Origin: a virus
Virus record (IMG/VR): IMGVR_UViG_3300010400_000001
Location: 32,001-96,000 of that record
Strand: one strand, 5' to 3'
DNA length: 64,000 bases
Shown here: piece by piece, positions 58,062-64,000 of the stretch
Position numbering within the stretch: position 1 is the first letter of the stretch
Layout: every line of letters begins with the position of its first letter
Translations under genes and position numbers: made by a program
Notes under the pieces: generated by a model
Databases searched by the model: none
Told to the model about the DNA's origin: nothing
What the model saw: only the letters and a program-made list of their open reading frames with translations

Positions 58062-58883
58062 ATGAAGCCCACGCTCGCGATCATGAATCGCTCGACTGTA
58101 GTCCCGGACGCCGCCTTCCCACCTGTCGTTGCCGCCAACCAGAAGCAGGTCTCGGGAGACTTCGCCGAGTACTACGGCAAGGACGCCTCACTCGTATTCG
58201 TAGCGAAGTCAGAGCAGCCGCCCGTAGGAAGCTGGCAGATCGTCGTCAGCGACACGGTGCCGATGGCGGGAGCGCTCGGCTATCACGATTTCACGAAAGA
58301 GGGCAATCCCATCGGCAAAGTCGGCGCGATGACGAGCATGAAGGCGAACGCGCTCTGGGCCGTGACGTTGTCGCACGAGATCTTGGAGATGCTCGCCGAC
58401 CCCGACATCATCCGCGCGGCGTTCGTGCAGCAGACGGCGGTCCGAGCGATGATCTTCGCGTACGAGATTTGCGATCCCGTAGAGGCGGACGAGCTCGCGT
58501 ACGAAATCGACGGCGTGAAAGTGAGCGACTTCGTGACGGAGCAGTGGTTCGAACCGCATCGCGTCGGCGTTCCGTTTTCATTCCGGAAGACTGTGCAGCG
58601 TCCGATGACGCTTGCGCCGGGCGGCTACATCAGCGTGTACCGACCCGGCGGCGGCCGCTGGCAGCAGATTAACGCGCGCGCAGATCTGCATCCTCCCGGC
58701 GCCGCGACAGAAGAACTGCGAAACATCGTTTACCTGGCGCACCGCGCCGAGGTCGATGACGAGCGAGCGATCCGGGGTCGCGCCTTGCCGTACTCGAAGA
58801 TCCCGAACGTCGGGAGCCGGCGCGAGCGGAGAAACCGTGCGCGTGCCGAGTGGTGCGTGAGCACGGAGGACAGCGGTTCATGA
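58062..58883 (+). CDS. Zincin-like hypothetical protein
   Basis: ALGYH, SHEILEMLADP, EICDPV, VSDFV. Confidence 0.7.
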   Translation: MKPTLAIMNRSTVVPDAAFPPVVAANQKQVSGDFAEYYGKDASLVFVAKSEQPPVGSWQIVVSDTVPMAGALGYHDFTKEGNPIGKVGAMTSMKANALWAVTLSHEILEMLADPDIIRAAFVQQTAVRAMIFAYEICDPVEADELAYEIDGVKVSDFVTEQWFEPHRVGVPFSFRKTVQRPMTLAPGGYISVYRPGGGRWQQINARADLHPPGAATEELRNIVYLAHRAEVDDERAIRGRALPYSKIPNVGSRRERRNRARAEWCVSTEDSGS

Positions 58884-59125: not shown

Positions 59126-59266
59126 CCTTCGGGGCGGACGGAGCATGATGCGCGGGGAGATCCCGCGATGTGAAAACGGTGAGTCGTTCATGATGAAACA
59201 CTCCGTCCGGCCCGAGTTTTCGGTAAGCGCTTGTCCCCGGGGGCCTTCGTAGATAAAGTTCTCTCC

Positions 59267-59749
59267 ATGCTCCACGGTAACGGGCTTGGTCGAGGCGGCG
59301 GCGGAGGCGGTCACGGTGGCGGTGGTCACGGTGGAGGCGGCGGTCACCACGGCGGTGGCGGAGGCGGGCATCATGGCGGTGGCGGTCACCACGGCGGCCA
59401 TCGCGGTGGACGCGGGCGCGGCTTCGGTCCGACTGTGGTCGTTCAAGATGGCGGCGGATGGTGGGGTCCGGGCTGGTACGCCGATCCGCTCGTCGTCGAG
59501 CGGACGTGCGCGGTCGTCGACACGGAGGGTGTGTGCATCTGTCAGACGCTCAATCCGGACGGCACGTGCGCTCGGCCGCTCGTCGGCTGGGTTGGCGGTC
59601 GTCCCATCTACGGCATTGGAGAGGAAACGCTCTCGGCATCGAGCGGAGCGACGAGCTGGATCGCGGGAGGCCTGCTCGTTGGCCTCGCGATTGGCGTCTA
59701 TGCCCTGGATAAAAAGGGCCCTGGCGGCTCCAGGCGCGCCTCAGCTTGA
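59267..59749 (+). CDS. Gly/His-rich protein with C-terminal TM anchor
   Basis: (GGGGH)n repeat, four Cys, IYGIG motif, TM plus KK. Confidence 0.7.
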   Translation: MLHGNGLGRGGGGGGHGGGGHGGGGGHHGGGGGGHHGGGGHHGGHRGGRGRGFGPTVVVQDGGGWWGPGWYADPLVVERTCAVVDTEGVCICQTLNPDGTCARPLVGWVGGRPIYGIGEETLSASSGATSWIAGGLLVGLAIGVYALDKKGPGGSRRASA

Positions 59750-59772
59750 GTTAGACCGGATCCCCTTGTAGA

Positions 59773-60357
59773 GTGAGGGCTGCTGGGCGCTTCCCGACGC
59801 CAGGCATCGGGAAAGTTGTGCGCCAGCTGTCGAACCAGCCCCCATCGACCCTGTCGGGTTTCCGCGGACACCCGGACACGCTCCGGGCCATGGTTCGGGC
59901 CGTTCACGGTCAGCGAGGCGAGCAGAGCATGCTCGTGAAATCGGTGGCCGAGCACATTGTGCAGAAGGTGCAGCCGAAGGATTACCTCGGAGAGATCTTG
60001 GCGGTGAGGTACTGGGTGACCGAGCACGTCAGGTACCTGAACGATCCGCTGCACGTCGAGGTCGTGAAGGATCCGCAACGCATCGTCGAAGAGATCGATG
60101 CACGCGGCCAAGCGGCGGAAGACTGCGACGGCATCGCGCTCCTCATCGGATGCCTCTGCCTTCTCATTGGCCGCGTGTGCGAGTTCGTCGTCGTCGGTTT
60201 CGGCGAGCCCGGGAGCTACAGCCACGTCTTCGTACGCGTAAAGGAACCCCGGAGCGGGAAATGGATCGTGTGCGATCCGGTTGCGGGCTCTGACGAGCGC
60301 GGCATGCTCGATCGCGTGACGACTTTTTACACGAAGAGTCTCGACGAGGCGGCGTAA
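59773..60357 (+). CDS. Transglutaminase-like (Cys-His-Asp) enzyme
   Basis: VRY.ND, EDCDG, SHVF, W...DP. Confidence 0.85.
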   Translation: MRAAGRFPTPGIGKVVRQLSNQPPSTLSGFRGHPDTLRAMVRAVHGQRGEQSMLVKSVAEHIVQKVQPKDYLGEILAVRYWVTEHVRYLNDPLHVEVVKDPQRIVEEIDARGQAAEDCDGIALLIGCLCLLIGRVCEFVVVGFGEPGSYSHVFVRVKEPRSGKWIVCDPVAGSDERGMLDRVTTFYTKSLDEAA

Positions 60358-61073
60358 TGTCGAATCGATTCAAAAATCTCCGCCCGAACTATCCGCTCTA
60401 CGAGAGTCAGCCGATGTTCGGCGGCGCCCTGCCGACGATCGACGAGATCGGGCCGCCCGACATGCGGCCGAGCGGATTGAACCCGTACTACGACATGTAC
60501 AGAGGGGCTCACGGGCGAAACTTTGCCGGCCTCGGAGGAAATACGATGAGTGCTGATCCAGGGATCCGCGACTATCCGAACGAGCTCAACATGCTCGCGG
60601 AGGCCGACGACGTGCAAGGAAACGGCGTCTTCGATCCTCACGGAAGCCAGGGCAACGTCCACGTCGACCAGGGAGTCTTCGCCGATCACGAAAACCTCCC
60701 GGGCTACATCGTGAAGGACCAGTACTACGCGCCCTCTTCGGTCATCGACGCGACGACGGGAAACCCCGTCATGTACGTCCCGGGCGGCGCAGTGCCGATC
60801 GATCAGAACCAGCTCGACACGTACAGAGAGCGCCAGCTTCTCTGGGAATTGCAGCCAGGCCTCAGCCCCGAGAGCCTGCCCGAGCCGCCCGACGGGGAGA
60901 CGTGGATCCCGCACGAGTACTCGTGGCCCGTGTCGGGCATCGGCGCAGATCCGCCGCCGGGCGCAGATCCCGCGTCGCTCCCGTCATCCGGCTCCAAGGT
61001 TCCTCTCATCGCGTCGCTCGGCATCGTCGGCGTCGCCGTCGGCATCTTCGTCGCCACCCTCATGAAGAAGTAA
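60357..61073 (+). CDS. Putative virion protein with C-terminal TM anchor
   Basis: FAGLG and VSGIG motifs; TM plus MKK. Confidence 0.75.
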   Translation: MSNRFKNLRPNYPLYESQPMFGGALPTIDEIGPPDMRPSGLNPYYDMYRGAHGRNFAGLGGNTMSADPGIRDYPNELNMLAEADDVQGNGVFDPHGSQGNVHVDQGVFADHENLPGYIVKDQYYAPSSVIDATTGNPVMYVPGGAVPIDQNQLDTYRERQLLWELQPGLSPESLPEPPDGETWIPHEYSWPVSGIGADPPPGADPASLPSSGSKVPLIASLGIVGVAVGIFVATLMKK

Positions 61074-61079
61074 CCACGC

Positions 61080-61472
61080 ATGGACCACTACCAGAGCATC
61101 CTGCCCGAGTTCGACGTCTTCACGCCGCCGCCGGCGCCGCGCGAGCCGCCCGGCGGTCAGATGCTTGGCGCCGTGCGCCCGAAGAGAGCCGCGCGCTGGC
61201 TCATGAGCCCAGCGTCCGCTGTCTTTTCCGGTCTCGGGCAGGACGAGCCGGCCGCTGCGCTCGCTGTCGAGCCGCCGTCGACGGGGCACCTCGTCGTTGG
61301 TCTCCTCATCCTCACGGGCCTCGGCTACCTCTGCTACGAGGTCGGGACAGCGATGGCGCCCGCCGGCTCGAAGAAGGTGCAGTGGGGCATCGTCGGCATT
61401 CCCGCGGGTCTTCTTGCTGGGCCGCTTGGCCTCGGCGCGATGGCCGTCTACGCGAATCACGGAAGGGGATAA
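61080..61472 (+). CDS. Putative virion membrane protein
   Basis: FSGLG motif then TM helices. Confidence 0.7.
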   Translation: MDHYQSILPEFDVFTPPPAPREPPGGQMLGAVRPKRAARWLMSPASAVFSGLGQDEPAAALAVEPPSTGHLVVGLLILTGLGYLCYEVGTAMAPAGSKKVQWGIVGIPAGLLAGPLGLGAMAVYANHGRG

Positions 61473-61475
61473 GCG

Positions 61476-61781
61476 ATGGGATGCGGCTGCGCTCAAGGTA
61501 TCGGTGATTCGATGAACACGTACGACGGGCCTGTCCCGTCGGGTGTTCCGAATCCGTTCGGTCCGATGCTGCACTCGTACCCGACCAGGTACCACGGCCC
61601 GATCTACACGCGGCCGATGTTCGGCTTTCCGTGGCGCGAGCGTCCGAACGACTTCGCGCGAGAGCGCGGGCTCGAGGGCCTCGGCGTGGAAGACGTCCCG
61701 TCCGGCACGAGTGACGGGCTCAAGGCTCTTCTCGTGCTCGGGCTCATCGGCGGCGTAGTCATCTTGACGAGGAATCTCTGA
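61476..61781 (+). CDS. Putative virion protein with C-terminal TM anchor
   Basis: AQGIG, LEGLG motifs; TM. Confidence 0.7.
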   Translation: MGCGCAQGIGDSMNTYDGPVPSGVPNPFGPMLHSYPTRYHGPIYTRPMFGFPWRERPNDFARERGLEGLGVEDVPSGTSDGLKALLVLGLIGGVVILTRNL

Positions 61782-62152
61782 TGTACCGAAAAAACGGTCA
61801 CTCGATGCCAGAGCGCGAGGAAGGCGCTGCGTACTTGGGTCTCTTCGGAGACGAAGACGATCGCATCTGGGGCGTGAATCCAAGTCTTCTGACGCGCGGC
61901 TTCGGCGAAGGCGACGCGGCGACCGAGATACCGGAGGTGGCGATCGAGGGAAGCCCCGCGGCGCCGCTCTTTTACGAGACGCCGTTCTGGCGCGTGCTCT
62001 CGATCGCGGGAGCGGCGCTCGGCGCGTATCACGGATACAAGCGAAACGATTCTTTCGGGTGGGCCCTCGGCTGGGCCTTTCTCGGATCGCTCATTCCCGT
62101 CGTGGTGATCCCTGTCGCGTTCGCGCAAGGGATCGGGAAACCAAAGAGGTAA
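61781..62152 (+). CDS. Putative virion membrane protein
   Basis: TRGFG motif; AYHGYKRN.S.GWALGW TM hairpin. Confidence 0.7.
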   Translation: MYRKNGHSMPEREEGAAYLGLFGDEDDRIWGVNPSLLTRGFGEGDAATEIPEVAIEGSPAAPLFYETPFWRVLSIAGAALGAYHGYKRNDSFGWALGWAFLGSLIPVVVIPVAFAQGIGKPKR

Positions 62153-62159
62153 AACGGTC

Positions 62160-63008
62160 ATGCTCCAAGTCAAAACTCGAGGCGGTGTGTTCGGTCCCGG
62201 CGGCTACGGCGGCGGGATCTTCGACGGATCGCAAATGGGATTCGGCGGCCTCGGCAGCGTGGCGTTCGAGCAAGCAGCCGCGGGTATCGGCGCCGACACG
62301 GGCGCCTTCAAGTGGTGCAGCAAGGCGTCGCCGTGCCCTACGGGCGACCCGCGAGTCAGCGCACTTCAGAAGGCTCTGAACACGGCGCTCAAGGCGCACG
62401 GTTTCAAGCCGCTGACGGTCGACGGGAAATTCGGAACGAGCACGTGCGGCGCGATCTCGTGGGCAGGAAATCTCCCCCAGTCCGATCCGCTCTTCACGAC
62501 TGCCGGTGTCGAGTACATGACGCCCGCCTACCTCGTCGATAGCTCGGGCCAGCCAGTCTGCAAGTCCTTCACCTACCCGACGAAGGTCGGATCGACGACG
62601 CCGTACATTCCCCCGTCGACGTTCCGCTCGGGCCTCCCCTGGAAAGAGGTGAGCCCGGAGACGGCGACGGTGCAGCGGAACATAAATAACGATCTCACGC
62701 AGCACGGCTACGATCCGATCAGCGAGAGCGGCATGCTCGACGCGCCGACCTGCGGCGCGATGCGGGTCGCGAAAGACGAGTGGGGTATGGACTACCTCAC
62801 GGCGTACGGCGGTAACTGCCAGGAGTTTCAGGCGCCGCGAAAGCACGCGCAGCCAGTCGTCGTGACTCCGACGCCGACTCCGGCGCATGAAGACGAGCTG
62901 CCGCACGCAGTCAGCTCGAAAAAGAGCGGCGTCTCGACGGCGTGGGTGATCGGTGGTCTTGCCGTCGCCGCCGGCGTCGCAGGTCTCTACGCCGCACGAA
63001 AGAGGTAG
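62160..63008 (+). CDS. Two peptidoglycan-binding-like domains with C-terminal TM anchor
   Basis: V.ALQ.ALN..VDGKFG..T and second degenerate copy; TM plus RKR. Confidence 0.8.
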   Translation: MLQVKTRGGVFGPGGYGGGIFDGSQMGFGGLGSVAFEQAAAGIGADTGAFKWCSKASPCPTGDPRVSALQKALNTALKAHGFKPLTVDGKFGTSTCGAISWAGNLPQSDPLFTTAGVEYMTPAYLVDSSGQPVCKSFTYPTKVGSTTPYIPPSTFRSGLPWKEVSPETATVQRNINNDLTQHGYDPISESGMLDAPTCGAMRVAKDEWGMDYLTAYGGNCQEFQAPRKHAQPVVVTPTPTPAHEDELPHAVSSKKSGVSTAWVIGGLAVAAGVAGLYAARKR

Positions 63009-63017
63009 CCTCCCCCC

Positions 63018-63662
63018 ATGTCGAACTTCGGTCCCATCGCGTACGAGGACATGAGTCAGCTAAATGCTGAGTGGGGACAGCAGCGTCCGCCGATGGCGGG
63101 CCTCGGAGGGCTCCTCGCGGGTCTCGGCGCCGTCGCGCCCATGGCGCAGCACGAGTACGTCGACGTGTCCTTCCTCAATGCTCGGCTCCGTCCGATCGAG
63201 CCGAAGCGGTTCGGCATGGGCTACGGGATCGGCAACGGCGTCGGCAACGGCAGCATCTCCGGGAACAGTCTCGGCATCGTTGCCGGGCTCGGCGGAGACC
63301 CAGACTACCCCTGGCGGGAATACAGCTCCGACACGAAGGCGCTTCAGGAGCAGACGAACGAAGCGCTCATCGCGAATGGGTATGCTCCTATCACGGCCGA
63401 CGGGAAGCTCGGCCCCGCGACGTGCGGCGCTGTCCGCGCGATGTGCGCGACCTTGTCGCCACCGTGCGACACGCCGGGAACGTGCCAATCGTTCACGGCG
63501 CCGAGCCGCCCGGGCGCGATCGTGAAGACTTCATCGTCGAAGCCCTCCGTCGCGCGAGCGAGCATGATGGGCGGCGGCACGAACTGGCTTCTCATCGGCG
63601 GCGCCATCGGAGCGATCGCGATCGGCGGCGCGCTCATGTTCAAGGCGTCGAAAAAGCGATGA
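63018..63662 (+). CDS. Peptidoglycan-binding-like domain with C-terminal TM anchor
   Basis: ALQ..N..L...ADGKLGPAT; MAGLG/LAGLG/VAGLG; TM plus KKR. Confidence 0.8.
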   Translation: MSNFGPIAYEDMSQLNAEWGQQRPPMAGLGGLLAGLGAVAPMAQHEYVDVSFLNARLRPIEPKRFGMGYGIGNGVGNGSISGNSLGIVAGLGGDPDYPWREYSSDTKALQEQTNEALIANGYAPITADGKLGPATCGAVRAMCATLSPPCDTPGTCQSFTAPSRPGAIVKTSSSKPSVARASMMGGGTNWLLIGGAIGAIAIGGALMFKASKKR

Positions 63663-64000
63663 CGACACCGGTAGAGGCGATCCAGCAGCGTCTCGGTGTG
63701 CCGCGGAGCGGCCACTGGGACGGCGTCACGCGCGGCGCGCTCGTCGCCTACCAGCAGAGCCACGGCCTATCGCCGAGCGGGCATCCCGATCCGGCGACGC
63801 TCGCGAGCCTCGGCTACTACAGGCCCGACGATCTCTTCACTCAAAAGTGGGTGAGCTACCTCGAAGGCGGAGACAAGCCCGGAACCTTCGGTCGCGATCT
63901 CAAGACGTCGATCGATCAGGTGCCGCGCTGGGCGTGGGCGACGCTCGCCGCGAGCTTTTCGGTCTTCGCCTACATGGCGTACCGAACGGATCGAAAGCGA
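63659..64000 (+). CDS. Peptidoglycan-binding domain protein with TM helix (runs off window end)
   Basis: Translated by hand: IQQRLGV..G.WD..T..AL..YQQSHGL..SG..D.ATL..LG, then WAWATLAASFSVFAYMAY. Confidence 0.75.
   Translation, partial: MTTPVEAIQQRLGVPRSGHWDGVTRGALVAYQQSHGLSPSGHPDPATLASLGYYRPDDLFTQKWVSYLEGGDKPGTFGRDLKTSIDQVPRWAWATLAASFSVFAYMAYRTDRKR

What the first reader, a model, noticed from the sequence alone, without database searches (positions are those of the whole stretch)
59267..63662. Adenovirus-protease-like cleavage motif repeated across virion membrane proteins flanking a Cys-His-Asp enzyme
Seven otherwise dissimilar membrane-anchored proteins around the transglutaminase-like gene carry x-x-G-[LIF]-G, usually with a hydrophobic first residue and followed by small or acidic residues: IYGIGEE, FAGLGGN, VSGIGAD, FSGLGQD, AQGIGDS, LEGLGVE, TRGFGEG, FGGLGSV, AAGIGAD, MAGLGG, LAGLGA, VAGLGGD (also PDGLGAT in 23692-24150). 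The motif sits at the junction between a low-complexity N-terminal part and the anchored domain. Known: adenain cuts (M/L/I)xGx-G and (M/L/I)xGG-x during maturation, and transglutaminase-fold proteins can be cysteine proteases. Inference: a bacterial virus with adenovirus-style proteolytic maturation (or cross-linking) driven by the 59773-60357 product.
Basis: partly seen in the sequence, partly recalled or inferred. Interest (0 to 1): 0.85.

Follow-up and report, generated by a model that had tools for sequence, protein, structure and literature searches.

The report
Shared Gly-Leu-Gly motif beside viral transglutaminase-fold enzyme
A family of uncultivated large bacterial viruses marks many of its membrane-anchored proteins with the same short hydrophobic-x-Gly-Leu-Gly tag and always encodes a cysteine enzyme of the transglutaminase fold at the head of that gene block, which most likely cuts at the tag during particle assembly, although no cutting has been shown.

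Summary
All 13 quoted heptads are present. G[LIF]G occurs 19 times in 1,377 aa of the eight cluster proteins and 62 times in 38,575 aa of the other 214 called proteins; 0 of 2,000 within-protein shuffles reach 19. Outside TM segments GLG is the third most enriched of 125 tripeptides in the 25-kb block, after the low-complexity GGG and RRR. Control patterns are not enriched in this way.

The enrichment recurs in two complete relatives. It also recurs in a separate group of 33-42-kb viral contigs that share almost nothing else with this genome. About half of the window's sites are conserved islands in orthologs; the rest are not retained.

The 59818-60357 product has a transglutaminase/papain-like fold (VIA Z 14.8) and an invariant Cys-His-Asp triad. 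A copy lies just upstream in 24 of 24 loci found through a neighbouring tail-anchored protein. In distant viruses the enzyme is itself tail-anchored, often with the motif in its linker.

Cleavage, virion location and a membrane-containing particle are all inferred. The enzyme is not related to adenain. Other first readers of this scan noted the same motif here and in another genome.

The parts
59231..59749 (+). Tail-anchored protein (172 aa as longest ORF) with a Gly/His-rich N-terminal part. The IYGIGEE motif is at aa 126-132 (nt 59606-59626), 13 aa before the TM (aa 141-159).
   Evidence: The motif is retained in 3 of 4 orthologs. The true start is uncertain; my codon-score caller preferred 59435.
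59818..60357 (+). Transglutaminase-fold Cys-His-Asp enzyme of 179 aa, the candidate protease. The catalytic residues are Cys in GxDCD, His in SHVF and Asp in CDPV. They are C118/H151/D168 in the numbering of the 194-aa ORF that starts at 59773.
   Evidence: Pfam PF01841 E 0.009, 16.7 bits, below the cutoff of 23. 233 homologs. The triad is invariant in 35 of 35 and 25 of 25 aligned sequences. AF2 pLDDT 88.9. Foldseek and VIA hits fall in the transglutaminase-like superfamily. The start is inferred from homolog N-termini and the DNA.
60357..61073 (+). Tail-anchored protein (238 aa) with a conserved core (DDVQGNGVFDP...LPGY). The core is flanked by FAGLGGN (nt 60522-60542) and VSGIGAD (nt 60930-60950); the TM is at aa 217-235 and the protein ends in KK.
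   Evidence: The motifs are retained in 14/23 and 13/23 orthologs. For the second site the Gly columns are 0.83 and 0.78 identical to the query, against 0.23 in the flanks.
61080..61472 (+). Small protein with two TM segments (130 aa). FSGLGQD (nt 61224-61244) lies 18 aa before the first TM.
   Evidence: Retained in 6 of 9 orthologs, with flank identity 0.23.
61476..61781 (+). Tail-anchored protein (101 aa) with a conserved MGCGC N-terminus. It carries AQGIGDS (nt 61491-61511) and LEGLGVE (nt 61671-61691), the latter 10 aa before the TM.
   Evidence: LEGLG is retained in 14/20 orthologs (Gly columns 0.90, flanks 0.28). AQGIG is retained in 5/20.
61781..62152 (+). Small membrane protein (123 aa, probably a helical hairpin). 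TRGFGEG is not conserved. The C-terminal AQGIGKP is conserved.
   Evidence: TRGFGEG is retained in 0/6 orthologs and AQGIGKP in 6/6. Relatives of this protein are also found in three distant loci.
62160..63008 (+). Tail-anchored protein (282 aa) with N-terminal FGGLGSV and AAGIGAD (nt 62241-62297). It has two stretches resembling a peptidoglycan-binding domain.
   Evidence: PG_binding_1 scores 21.2 bits, below the cutoff of 23. It is a paralog of the next gene. FGGLG is retained in 11/17 orthologs.
63018..63662 (+). Tail-anchored protein (214 aa) carrying MAGLGG, LAGLGA and VAGLGGD (nt 63093-63299).
   Evidence: PG_binding hits are below the cutoff. MAGLG is retained in 8/15 orthologs with flank identity 0.15; LAGLGA is retained in 0/15.
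63659..64000 (+). Peptidoglycan-binding protein (117 aa; it runs 12 nt past the window end) with a C-terminal hydrophobic stretch and a basic tail. It has no motif.
   Evidence: PG_binding_1 scores 34.6 bits against a cutoff of 23.

Best explanation
The hydrophobic-small-Gly-[Leu>Ile/Met/Phe]-Gly-[Ala/Asp]-[Asp] motif is a real, conserved short linear motif. It marks the tail-anchored proteins, and several soluble ones, of a 25-kb morphogenesis-like gene block.

It is most likely the recognition and cleavage site of the transglutaminase-fold Cys-His-Asp enzyme encoded at the head of the block (59818-60357). That enzyme would act as a papain-type thiol protease, as LapG and vasohibin do on the same fold.

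The proposed mechanism is as follows. The substrates insert into a membrane through their C-terminal anchor, with the N-terminal part on the cytoplasmic or particle side. The enzyme has no signal peptide or TM in this genome and is tail-anchored in distant relatives, so it sits on the same side. Cutting then removes short N-terminal leaders of 5-60 aa and frees domains from their anchors at sites 10-20 aa before the TM.

Shown: the motif, its enrichment, its partial conservation, the fold, the triad and the synteny. Inferred: protease activity, the scissile bond, the timing, and that these are virion proteins.
For: 1. Specific enrichment against composition, shuffles and control patterns.
2. 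Replication in complete relatives: G001, with the enzyme 57% identical, shows 30 against 50 sites (2.8x); G004, 53% identical, shows 35 against 37 (4.0x). Controls there range from 0.6x to 1.35x.
3. Conserved islands in poorly conserved flanks for 7 window sites.
4. Flank preferences fit a protease subsite pattern and disordered linkers: I/M/L/V/F at -2 in 59% of sites, A/S/G at -1, A/D/G/E at +1, and G/A/P/S around.
5. Fold and triad.
6. Synteny: 24 of 24 loci found through the neighbouring protein have the enzyme gene 0-2.8 kb upstream on the same strand; 9 of these contigs are new.
7. An independent group of 33-42-kb contigs shares essentially only the enzyme with this genome. There the tail-anchored genes again cluster next to it. 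GLG is the third most enriched of 271 tripeptides in tail-anchored against other proteins, 24 against 41.
8. In those viruses the enzyme itself ends in a TM plus a basic tail in about 15 of 21 loci. In 9 of these the motif lies between the catalytic domain and the TM, as expected for self-release.
9. In the distant genome G003 the middle residue is Phe in 11 of 24 sites, against 12 of 99 in the three nearer genomes (Fisher p 5e-4). This would fit co-variation of enzyme and site.
10. Precedents from passages read: adenain cuts (M/I/L)XGX|G, including IVGL|G (PMC4246237). Vaccinia I7L cuts AG|X in core proteins and at both ends of the membrane protein A17 (PMC1959187). LapG, on this fold, cuts at a di-alanine (PMC10990149). 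T4 removes 10-residue N-terminal targeting leaders (PMC9026906).
Against: - No experimental or proteomic evidence of cleavage exists.
- The superfamily also holds cross-linking, deamidating, acyl-transfer and cell-wall enzymes, and the fold does not tell them apart.
- In the capsid candidate c267 the motif follows a confidently modelled strand and its 23 N-terminal residues are highly conserved, which is not typical of a discarded leader.
- In G001 GLG is not among the top 8 of 104 tripeptides. In G003 the control G[AVSTP]G is as enriched (2.3x) as G[LIMF]G (2.3x).
- Orthologs and paralogs are not independent, so the counts overstate the support. Three of the G003 Phe sites are paralogous N-termini.
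- Gene calls rest on my own codon-score or longest-ORF callers.
- Four of about 15 tail-anchored enzymes lack the motif in the linker.
Confidence: 0.45

Rival explanations
1. The motif is a docking peptide, not a cut site. Many block proteins would use it to bind one common partner, such as the capsid shell, a scaffold, or a chaperone like the J-domain protein of the block. The transglutaminase-fold enzyme would then do something else, for example act as a cell-wall endopeptidase for entry or lysis alongside the peptidoglycan-binding neighbours.
For: - The motif behaves like any short linear motif: conserved islands with turnover.
- It is repeated three to seven times in the C-terminal tail of the Arg-rich 828-aa protein and its orthologs, as multivalent binding sites would be.
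- In c267 it sits in a structured, highly conserved N-terminal part.
- Pseudomurein endoisopeptidases of archaeal viruses share the fold (PeiP Z 8.2, PeiW Z 7.7; psiM2 Pei).
- Three neighbours carry PG-binding-like domains.
Against: - The motif has only one hydrophobic residue between two glycines plus a weak P4-like preference. This is closer to thiol-protease sites than to typical anchor-rich docking peptides (the comparison is my inference).
- This reading does not explain why the enzyme's own linker carries the motif in 9 distant loci.
- The enzyme has no signal peptide, so it would not reach the wall from inside a cell.
- The genome already encodes SLT and Amidase_2 enzymes.
Confidence: 0.22
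2. The enzyme is a transpeptidase or ligase rather than a simple protease. It would form a thioester at the motif and pass the freed carboxyl to an amine, such as a Lys of a shell protein, a lipid head group or peptidoglycan. This would be sortase-like and would exchange the membrane anchor for a covalent link.
For: - Animal transglutaminases are among the closest folds (Z 10.7-11.2), and arylamine N-acyltransferases also match (Z 8.0).
- Substrates have a motif followed by a TM and a basic tail, which loosely recalls C-terminal sorting signals (the comparison with sortase signals is from my own knowledge).
Against: - The distance from motif to TM varies from 10 to more than 200 aa, and many sites are N-terminal.
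- There is no N-terminal signal peptide.
- There is no conserved Gln or Lys in or near the motif.
- No acceptor is identified.
Confidence: 0.12
3. The motif has no specific reader. It would be a by-product of Gly-rich flexible linkers in small membrane proteins, carried along by shared ancestry.
For: - The block is richer in Gly, and GGG is the most enriched tripeptide.
- Several sites are not retained.
- In G003 a control pattern is as enriched as the motif.
Against: - G[AVSTP]G (1.7x), G[LIMF]A (0.96x) and A[LIMF]G (0.96x) are not enriched like G[LIMF]G (4.7x), although Leu is rarer in the block.
- 0 of 2,000 shuffles reach the observed count.
- Conserved islands lie in flanks of 0.15-0.28 identity.
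- The motif recurs in a group of viruses that shares almost no other detectable gene.
Confidence: 0.12
4. The sites are cut, but by another protease, of the host or the virus, and the transglutaminase-fold protein is a bystander.
For: The enzyme-site link rests only on synteny and co-occurrence.
Against: - No protease family was seen among the families listed for the 223 called proteins at E <= 1e-4. Only 25 of 35 families were shown for the first half.
- The strict linkage holds across two virus groups.
Confidence: 0.06

Closest known systems
Adenovirus protease (adenain, AVP) and its consensus sites
   Same: Both are thiol enzymes encoded among the assembly genes. One short Gly-based site of the same form, (M/I/L)XGX|G (for example IVGL|G in pVI), is spread over many unrelated particle proteins, including basic DNA-condensing core proteins. 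Source: passages of PMC4246237; motif form.
   Different: There is no detectable homology. Pfam gives only Transglut_core for the window protein, and the fold is transglutaminase/papain-like. The substrates here are mostly tail-anchored membrane proteins, and the host is bacterial (SLT, Amidase_2, PG_binding, DnaB). Cleavage is not shown.
Poxvirus I7L core protein proteinase (AG|X sites)
   Same: It cuts a small-residue motif in core proteins. It also trims a viral membrane protein (A17) at both its N- and C-terminal ends, usually within the first 60 residues. Source: passages of PMC1959187. The positions of the sites here are similar.
   Different: The enzyme family, the motif (AG|X against hydrophobic-x-G-L-G) and the host domain all differ.
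LapG and other bacterial transglutaminase-like cysteine proteinases (BTLCP)
   Same: They share the fold (LapG Z 9.4, rmsd 4.1 over 136 residues; Foldseek E 3.4e-3). They are true proteases that cut at a pair of small residues (di-alanine) and thereby release an anchored protein. Source: passages of PMC10990149.
   Different: LapG is periplasmic and calcium-dependent and has one adhesin substrate. The viral enzyme has no signal peptide, appears to have many substrates, and uses a different motif. No Pfam or NCBIfam hit to the LapG family was listed.
T4 prohead protease gp21 and the capsid targeting sequences of internal proteins
   Same: Short N-terminal leaders of about 10 residues, shared by unrelated proteins, end in the protease site and are removed after assembly. 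Source: passages of PMC9026906. Here many block proteins carry the motif at residues 4-30.
   Different: gp21 is a serine protease of another fold (my own knowledge). T4 has no membrane proteins of this kind.
Putative proteases 3kd4 (BDI_1141) and 3isr
   Same: These are the closest solved structures: Z 14.8 (rmsd 2.5 over 138 residues) and Z 10.6; Foldseek E 6.5e-5 and 5.1e-5.
   Different: Both are structural-genomics entries whose names are predictions. Sequence identity is 14-17%. A profile of the viral family finds no PDB sequence below E 0.88.

Membership tests
Transglutaminase-like superfamily (Pfam PF01841 Transglut_core) | Profile match above Pfam's gathering score | tested here: inconclusive
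   The window protein scores 16.7 bits, E 0.009, against a cutoff of 23. Many homologs carry a precomputed PF01841 hit. A distant viral homolog (L083) scores 49.9 bits.
Transglutaminase-like superfamily (Pfam PF01841 Transglut_core) | Cys-His-Asp catalytic triad in the canonical order | tested here: met
   C118, H151 and D168 are invariant in 35 of 35 close homologs. The DCD Cys, His and Asp are invariant in 25 of 25 distant homologs.
Transglutaminase-like superfamily (Pfam PF01841 Transglut_core) | Transglutaminase/papain-like core fold | tested here: met
   AF2 model with pLDDT 88.9. VIA Z 14.8 to 3kd4, 10.7-11.2 to TG3, factor XIII and TG2, 9.6 to PNGase, 9.4 to LapG. Foldseek gives 5 hits at E <= 1e-3, all in this superfamily.
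Adenain (peptidase C5) | Sequence or fold relation to adenain | tested here: not met
   Pfam at E <= 0.1 lists only Transglut_core and Transglut_core2 for the window protein. The model's clear structural matches are all to the transglutaminase-like superfamily.
Adenain (peptidase C5) | Substrate site of the form (M/I/L)XGX|G or (M/I/L)XGG|X in many particle proteins | tested here: inconclusive
   The sequence form fits: I/M/L/V/F at the P4-like position in 85 of 143 sites, with G-x-G fixed by the search. Whether these sites are cut cannot be tested with these tools.
BTLCP / LapG-type proteases | N-terminal signal peptide and periplasmic location | tested here: not met
   There is no N-terminal hydrophobic segment. 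The only hydrophobic window in the 194-aa ORF is the catalytic helix at residues 114-132.
BTLCP / LapG-type proteases | Cleavage at a di-alanine site; calcium dependence | not testable with these tools
   The enriched motif is G-[LIMF]-G, and A[LIMF]A is not enriched (0.8x). Activity and metal dependence would need experiments.
Tail-anchored membrane proteins | A single hydrophobic segment within the last ~20 residues, with no N-terminal signal | tested here: met
   By a Kyte-Doolittle 19-residue window, 20 of 40 block proteins qualify (24 at a laxer cut), against 11-12 of 184 elsewhere. This is a hydropathy rule of my own, not a trained predictor. Insertion and topology are untested.
Peptidoglycan-binding domain PG_binding_1 (PF01471) | Profile match above the gathering score | tested here: met
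   The 63659-64012 product scores 34.6 bits against a cutoff of 23. The 62160 and 63018 products score 21.2 and 16.2 bits, below the cutoff.
Jelly-roll capsid proteins (for the candidate c267, outside the window) | Structural match to viral jelly-roll capsid proteins | tested here: inconclusive
   The AF2 model is a beta sandwich with pLDDT 73.7. Foldseek finds nothing at E <= 1e-3. The best VIA Z is 6.0; the list mixes calicivirus, picornavirus and SPV1 capsid proteins with TNF/C1q and GOLD domains.

The most novel reading that the evidence does not exclude
At least two groups of uncultivated bacterial viruses, about 130 kb and about 35 kb in size and both without recognisable capsid, portal or terminase genes, would share an undescribed assembly module. 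In it a transglutaminase-fold thiol protease, tethered by its own tail anchor in the small viruses, processes a whole suite of tail-anchored membrane proteins, a protamine-like core protein and capsid candidates at hydrophobic-x-Gly-Leu|Gly. That specificity would have converged on adenovirus protease. It would be the first maturation protease of this fold in any virus, and the first maturation code for membrane proteins of a bacterial virus.
Probability: 0.35. Interest if true: 0.85.

Novelty: new variant of a known kind. Interest (0 to 1): 0.7.

Why it matters
Known maturation proteases of bacterial viruses belong to serine or herpesvirus-like families and act on head proteins of tailed phages (my own knowledge). 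A thiol enzyme of the transglutaminase fold acting on a shared Gly-Leu-Gly code in membrane-anchored proteins would be a new enzyme-substrate system.

It would also give the first functional handle on a widespread set of viral genomes. The enzyme family has 3,763 representative clusters at E <= 1e-3. The structural genes of these genomes match no Pfam or PHROG family, and no GenBank phage matches the two proteins searched.

The motif predicts exact, testable cut sites in more than 20 proteins. That makes the question directly testable by co-expression and mass spectrometry without a cultured host. Even if the motif proves to be a docking peptide, it points to a common partner around which the particle is built.

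Tried and rejected
**Complex prediction.** I submitted enzyme residues 25-194 with residues 35-80 of the 60357-61073 product. The job gave no answer (ipSAE 0.00 and 0.01; the mark is 0.32). This is neither support nor evidence against.

**Family and structure searches that found nothing:**
- PHROGs, Pfam and NCBIfam found nothing for the seven motif proteins.
- Ten large downstream proteins also gave nothing.
- A profile of the enzyme family against PDB sequences gave only a chance-level hit (E 0.88).
- tblastn of the enzyme and of c267 against 50,697 GenBank phage records found no match.
- The ESM Atlas search for the 312-aa capsid candidate returned only unnamed viral clusters and no structure search.
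- Adenain, Ulp1-like and poxvirus I7L-like proteins do not appear among the listed structural matches of the enzyme model. That is an absence from lists, not proof.

**Ideas considered and dropped:**
- Classical Gln-Lys cross-linking at the motif: no conserved Gln or Lys.
- Rhomboid or signal-peptidase sites: the positions and spacing do not fit (the subsite rules are recalled, not checked).
- The 58062-58883 product as an alternative enzyme: it has an ortholog in only 1 locus.
- The TPGIGKV motif in the 5' extension of the enzyme ORF: it lies upstream of the likely start.

**Literature.** Full-text searches listed no paper on this virus group, on the motif, or on a viral transglutaminase-fold maturation protease. 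These were three keyword searches of open-access text only. Supplements were not consulted.

**Limits.**
- Gene sets come from my own callers.
- TM calls come from a hydropathy window.
- The counts pool related sequences.
- Loci with GC below 0.60 were left out.
- L012, L018 and the duplicate loci of the same contigs were left out of the ortholog sets.

Full report
**Setting.** The window is bases 32001-96000 of a 136,226-bp IMG/VR virus record with direct terminal repeats. The record is about 63% G+C. My codon-score gene caller gives 223 genes covering 89% of the record.

Recognisable genes are collagen-like fibre proteins and a DnaB helicase. Others are SLT, Amidase_2, GDSL lipases, glycosyltransferases, Cpn10, an integrase, ThyX, RuvC and a Cas12f/TnpB-like protein. 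These point to a bacterial host.

No capsid, portal, terminase or protease family appeared in the families listed at E <= 1e-4 over the 223 proteins. For the first 112 proteins only 25 of 35 families were shown. The enzyme and the best capsid candidate have no relative among 50,697 GenBank phage records.

**The observation.** In the eight products of 59231-64012, G[LIF]G occurs 19 times in 1,377 aa. In the other 214 called proteins it occurs 62 times in 38,575 aa. Shuffling each cluster protein gives 5.2 ± 2.2, and 0 of 2,000 shuffles reach 19.

The cluster is the start of a + strand block (genome 91.2-116.1 kb) of 40 genes.
- 20 of the 40 (24 at a laxer cut) end in a hydrophobic segment plus a basic tail, against 11-12 of the 184 other genes.
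- 19 of the 40 carry the motif outside TM segments.

An unbiased count of tripeptides outside TM segments ranks GLG third of 125 (22 against 15, 6.4-fold, p 3e-8) and GIG fourth. Only GGG and RRR rank higher. GGG comes mostly from one Gly/His-rich protein and RRR from an Arg-rich 828-aa protein.

G[LIMF]G is 4.7-fold enriched. The control patterns are lower: G[AVSTP]G 1.7, G[DEKRNQH]G 2.2, A[LIMF]A 0.8, G[LIMF]A 0.96 and A[LIMF]G 0.96. Leu is rarer in the block than elsewhere. The enrichment is therefore specific to Gly-hydrophobic-Gly.

**What the motif looks like.** I pooled 143 unique sites in tail-anchored proteins of this genome and its relatives.
- Two positions before the first Gly: I/M/L/V/F in 59% of sites (39% in soluble proteins).
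- One position before: A/S/G.
- The middle residue: Leu in 64%.
- The next positions favour A/D/G/E, then D, then P, set in G/A/P/S-rich surroundings.

Sites lie preferentially in the first 30 residues (47 observed, 25 expected) and 10-20 residues before the TM (17 observed, 8.5 expected). Several block proteins beyond the window carry the motif at residues 4-20. The Arg-rich protein has seven copies of the type AAG[LM]G[EQ][YF] after its TM segments.

**Conservation.** Against orthologs from up to 23 related loci, seven window sites are islands of conservation. For example, LEGLG of the 61476 product is retained in 14/20 orthologs, with Gly columns 0.90 identical against 0.28 in the flanks. 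The others are:
- VSGIG of the 60357 product, 13/23 (flanks 0.23);
- MAGLG of the 63018 product, 8/15 (flanks 0.15);
- FAGLG 14/23, FSGLG 6/9, FGGLG 11/17 and IYGIG 3/4.

Sites that are not retained are TRGFGEG 0/6, LAGLGA 0/15, AQGIGDS 5/20 and AAGIGAD 5/17; VAGLGGD is retained in 6/15. In distant orthologs the second Gly is often replaced. This is the behaviour of a short linear motif with turnover.

**Replication.** Two complete relatives were compared over the 25 kb after the enzyme gene against the rest of each genome.
- G001 (enzyme 57% identical): 30 against 50 sites, 2.8-fold.
- G004 (enzyme 53% identical): 35 against 37 sites, 4.0-fold.
- Controls range from 0.6 to 1.35.

GLG is the top tripeptide of 98 in G004, but it is not among the top 8 of 104 in G001.

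In the more distant G003 (48% identical) the enrichment is weaker (2.3-fold) and a control pattern is equally enriched. The middle residue is Phe in 11 of 24 sites there, against 12 of 99 in the three nearer genomes (p 5e-4; three of the Phe sites are paralogous N-termini).

**The enzyme.** The ORF from 59773 most likely starts at GTG 59818, because the homolog N-termini align from there.

Pfam gives Transglut_core below threshold (16.7 bits against 23). However, 233 homologs were found, many with a precomputed PF01841 hit. The Cys (in GxDCD), His and Asp are invariant in 35 of 35 close and 25 of 25 distant relatives.

The AF2 model (pLDDT 88.9) matches the following structures (Foldseek):
- the putative protease 3kd4 at Z 14.8;
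- animal transglutaminases at Z 10.7-11.2;
- 3isr at Z 10.6;
- PNGase at Z 9.6;
- LapG at Z 9.4;
- a CPR cysteine protease at Z 9.1;
- pseudomurein endoisopeptidase at Z 8.2;
- vasohibin at Z 8.0.

The fold is settled. The reaction is not, because this superfamily contains proteases, cross-linkers, amidases and acyltransferases.

The family is large: 3,763 representative clusters at E <= 1e-3. One homolog (P0074), and at least a dozen of the best 150 representatives, are split by an intein-like insertion at the catalytic Cys. A site like that is typical of a conserved, functionally important position.

**Linkage of enzyme and motif.** A search with orthologs of the neighbouring 60357-61073 product, and not with the enzyme, found 24 loci. 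All 24 have the enzyme gene 0-2.8 kb upstream on the same strand. Nine of the contigs had not been found through the enzyme.

A search with distant enzyme homologs found 44 more loci, many on contigs of 33-42 kb. Apart from one 125-kb relative, these share with this genome only the enzyme by tblastn at 1e-5. In a few loci they also share one small two-TM protein or DnaB.

Three patterns hold in these distant loci:
- Nearly all tail-anchored genes lie next to the enzyme gene.
- In 12 such loci G[LIMF]G outside TM segments is 3.8 per 1,000 aa in tail-anchored proteins (observed/expected 2.2), against 1.4 per 1,000 (1.1) in the others. GLG is third of 271 tripeptides, behind the enzyme's own GDC and AAA. 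The sites read L[RH]GLG[DEQ] at residues 13-76.
- The enzyme, which passes Pfam's threshold here (49.9 bits), is itself tail-anchored in about 15 of 21 loci. In nine of these a site such as STGLGQD, LRGLGQD or VSGMGSY lies between the catalytic domain and the TM.

An enzyme that carries its own presumed site in the tether is what one expects of a self-releasing protease. This is the strongest single argument for the link.

**Mechanism proposed.** The steps that are shown are the motif, the fold, the triad and the linkage. The rest is inferred:
- The tail anchors insert with the N-terminal parts on the same side as the enzyme, which has no signal peptide.
- The enzyme then cuts at the motif.
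- Cutting removes short leaders and frees domains from their anchors.

Four known systems offer parallels:
- Adenain, with sites (M/I/L)XGX|G and IVGL|G (PMC4246237, passages).
- Vaccinia I7L, which trims the membrane protein A17 at both ends (PMC1959187, passages).
- LapG, which releases an anchored adhesin by cutting at a small-residue pair on this very fold (PMC10990149, passages).
- T4, with leaders removed by gp21 (PMC9026906, passages).

I put this reading at 0.45. The rivals, with their evidence, are given in the Rival explanations section: a docking motif with an unrelated enzyme role (0.22), a transpeptidase (0.12), a linker by-product (0.12) and another protease (0.06).

**Context that remains open.** Other first readers of this scan proposed that the particle is tailless and membrane-containing (e1-6163770, e1-6163778). 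This fits the 20-24 tail-anchored proteins and the lack of tailed-phage hallmarks.

It is not shown. The most conserved capsid candidate is c267 (genome 104065-104868, 658 homologs). It folds as a beta sandwich at pLDDT 73.7. Its matches to jelly-roll proteins are only middling (best Z 6.0) and it has no Foldseek hit.

**Verdict.** The system is not a relative of adenain. At most it works like it.

Noticed in passing
L002:6403-8889 (genome 101403-103889, beyond the window end): An 828-aa protein with about 500 residues of extreme Arg/Lys content. These are followed by hydrophobic segments and a tail with seven motif copies of the type AAG[LM]G[EQ][YF]. Orthologs in G001 and G004 keep the repeated motif (MSGMGEY, VNGLGEY, VSGLGEY).
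   Followed up: partly
Protein P0074 and at least 12 of the best 150 hits: An intein-like insertion of about 130-350 aa lies directly at the catalytic Cys of the transglutaminase-fold enzyme, seen as two matched stretches in proteins of 325-541 aa. An earlier follow-up of this scan (e1-5356051) described one such case.
   Followed up: partly
L082-L109 (33-105-kb viral contigs): In distant relatives the transglutaminase-fold enzyme is itself a tail-anchored protein of about 280-400 aa. The viruses carrying it again have no Pfam or PHROG match for their large presumed structural proteins; this was tested for L083 only.
   Followed up: partly
window 61476-61781: A conserved N-terminus M-[GA]-C-x-[GP]-C lies directly before the first motif (MGCGCAQGIG, MGCPCAGGLG, MACVPCMAGLG in orthologs). 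This is a Cys pair of unknown role, possibly metal binding or lipidation.
   Followed up: no
L002:15772-16368 (genome 110772-111371): A 199-aa protein inside the block carries a C-terminal J domain (DnaJ, 34.3 bits against a cutoff of 27.8). This suggests recruitment of host Hsp70 during assembly.
   Followed up: no
L002:9065-9865 (genome 104065-104868): This is the most conserved protein of the block (658 homologs at 60-96% identity), a beta sandwich with weak jelly-roll-like matches. Its invariant N-terminal part reads ...RT[SA]G[LMIF]G, with R21 and G24 invariant. It is the first of three adjacent beta-rich capsid candidates.
   Followed up: partly
whole record (223 called proteins): No capsid, portal, terminase, packaging ATPase or protease family was listed by Pfam at E <= 1e-4, and there is no GenBank phage relative for two core proteins. 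This appears to be an undescribed virus lineage of about 110-180 kb, with many metagenomic relatives.
   Followed up: partly
window 59231-59749: The N-terminal part of the longest ORF is a run of about 45 residues made of Gly and His (GGGGGGHGGGGHGGGGGHH...). Whether it is translated is uncertain, because the codon-score caller started the gene at 59435.
   Followed up: no
window 58062-58883: A 273-aa protein just upstream contains SHEILEMLADP, which loosely recalls a metal-binding motif but is not HExxH. It has no family hit and an ortholog in only one of the related loci.
   Followed up: partly
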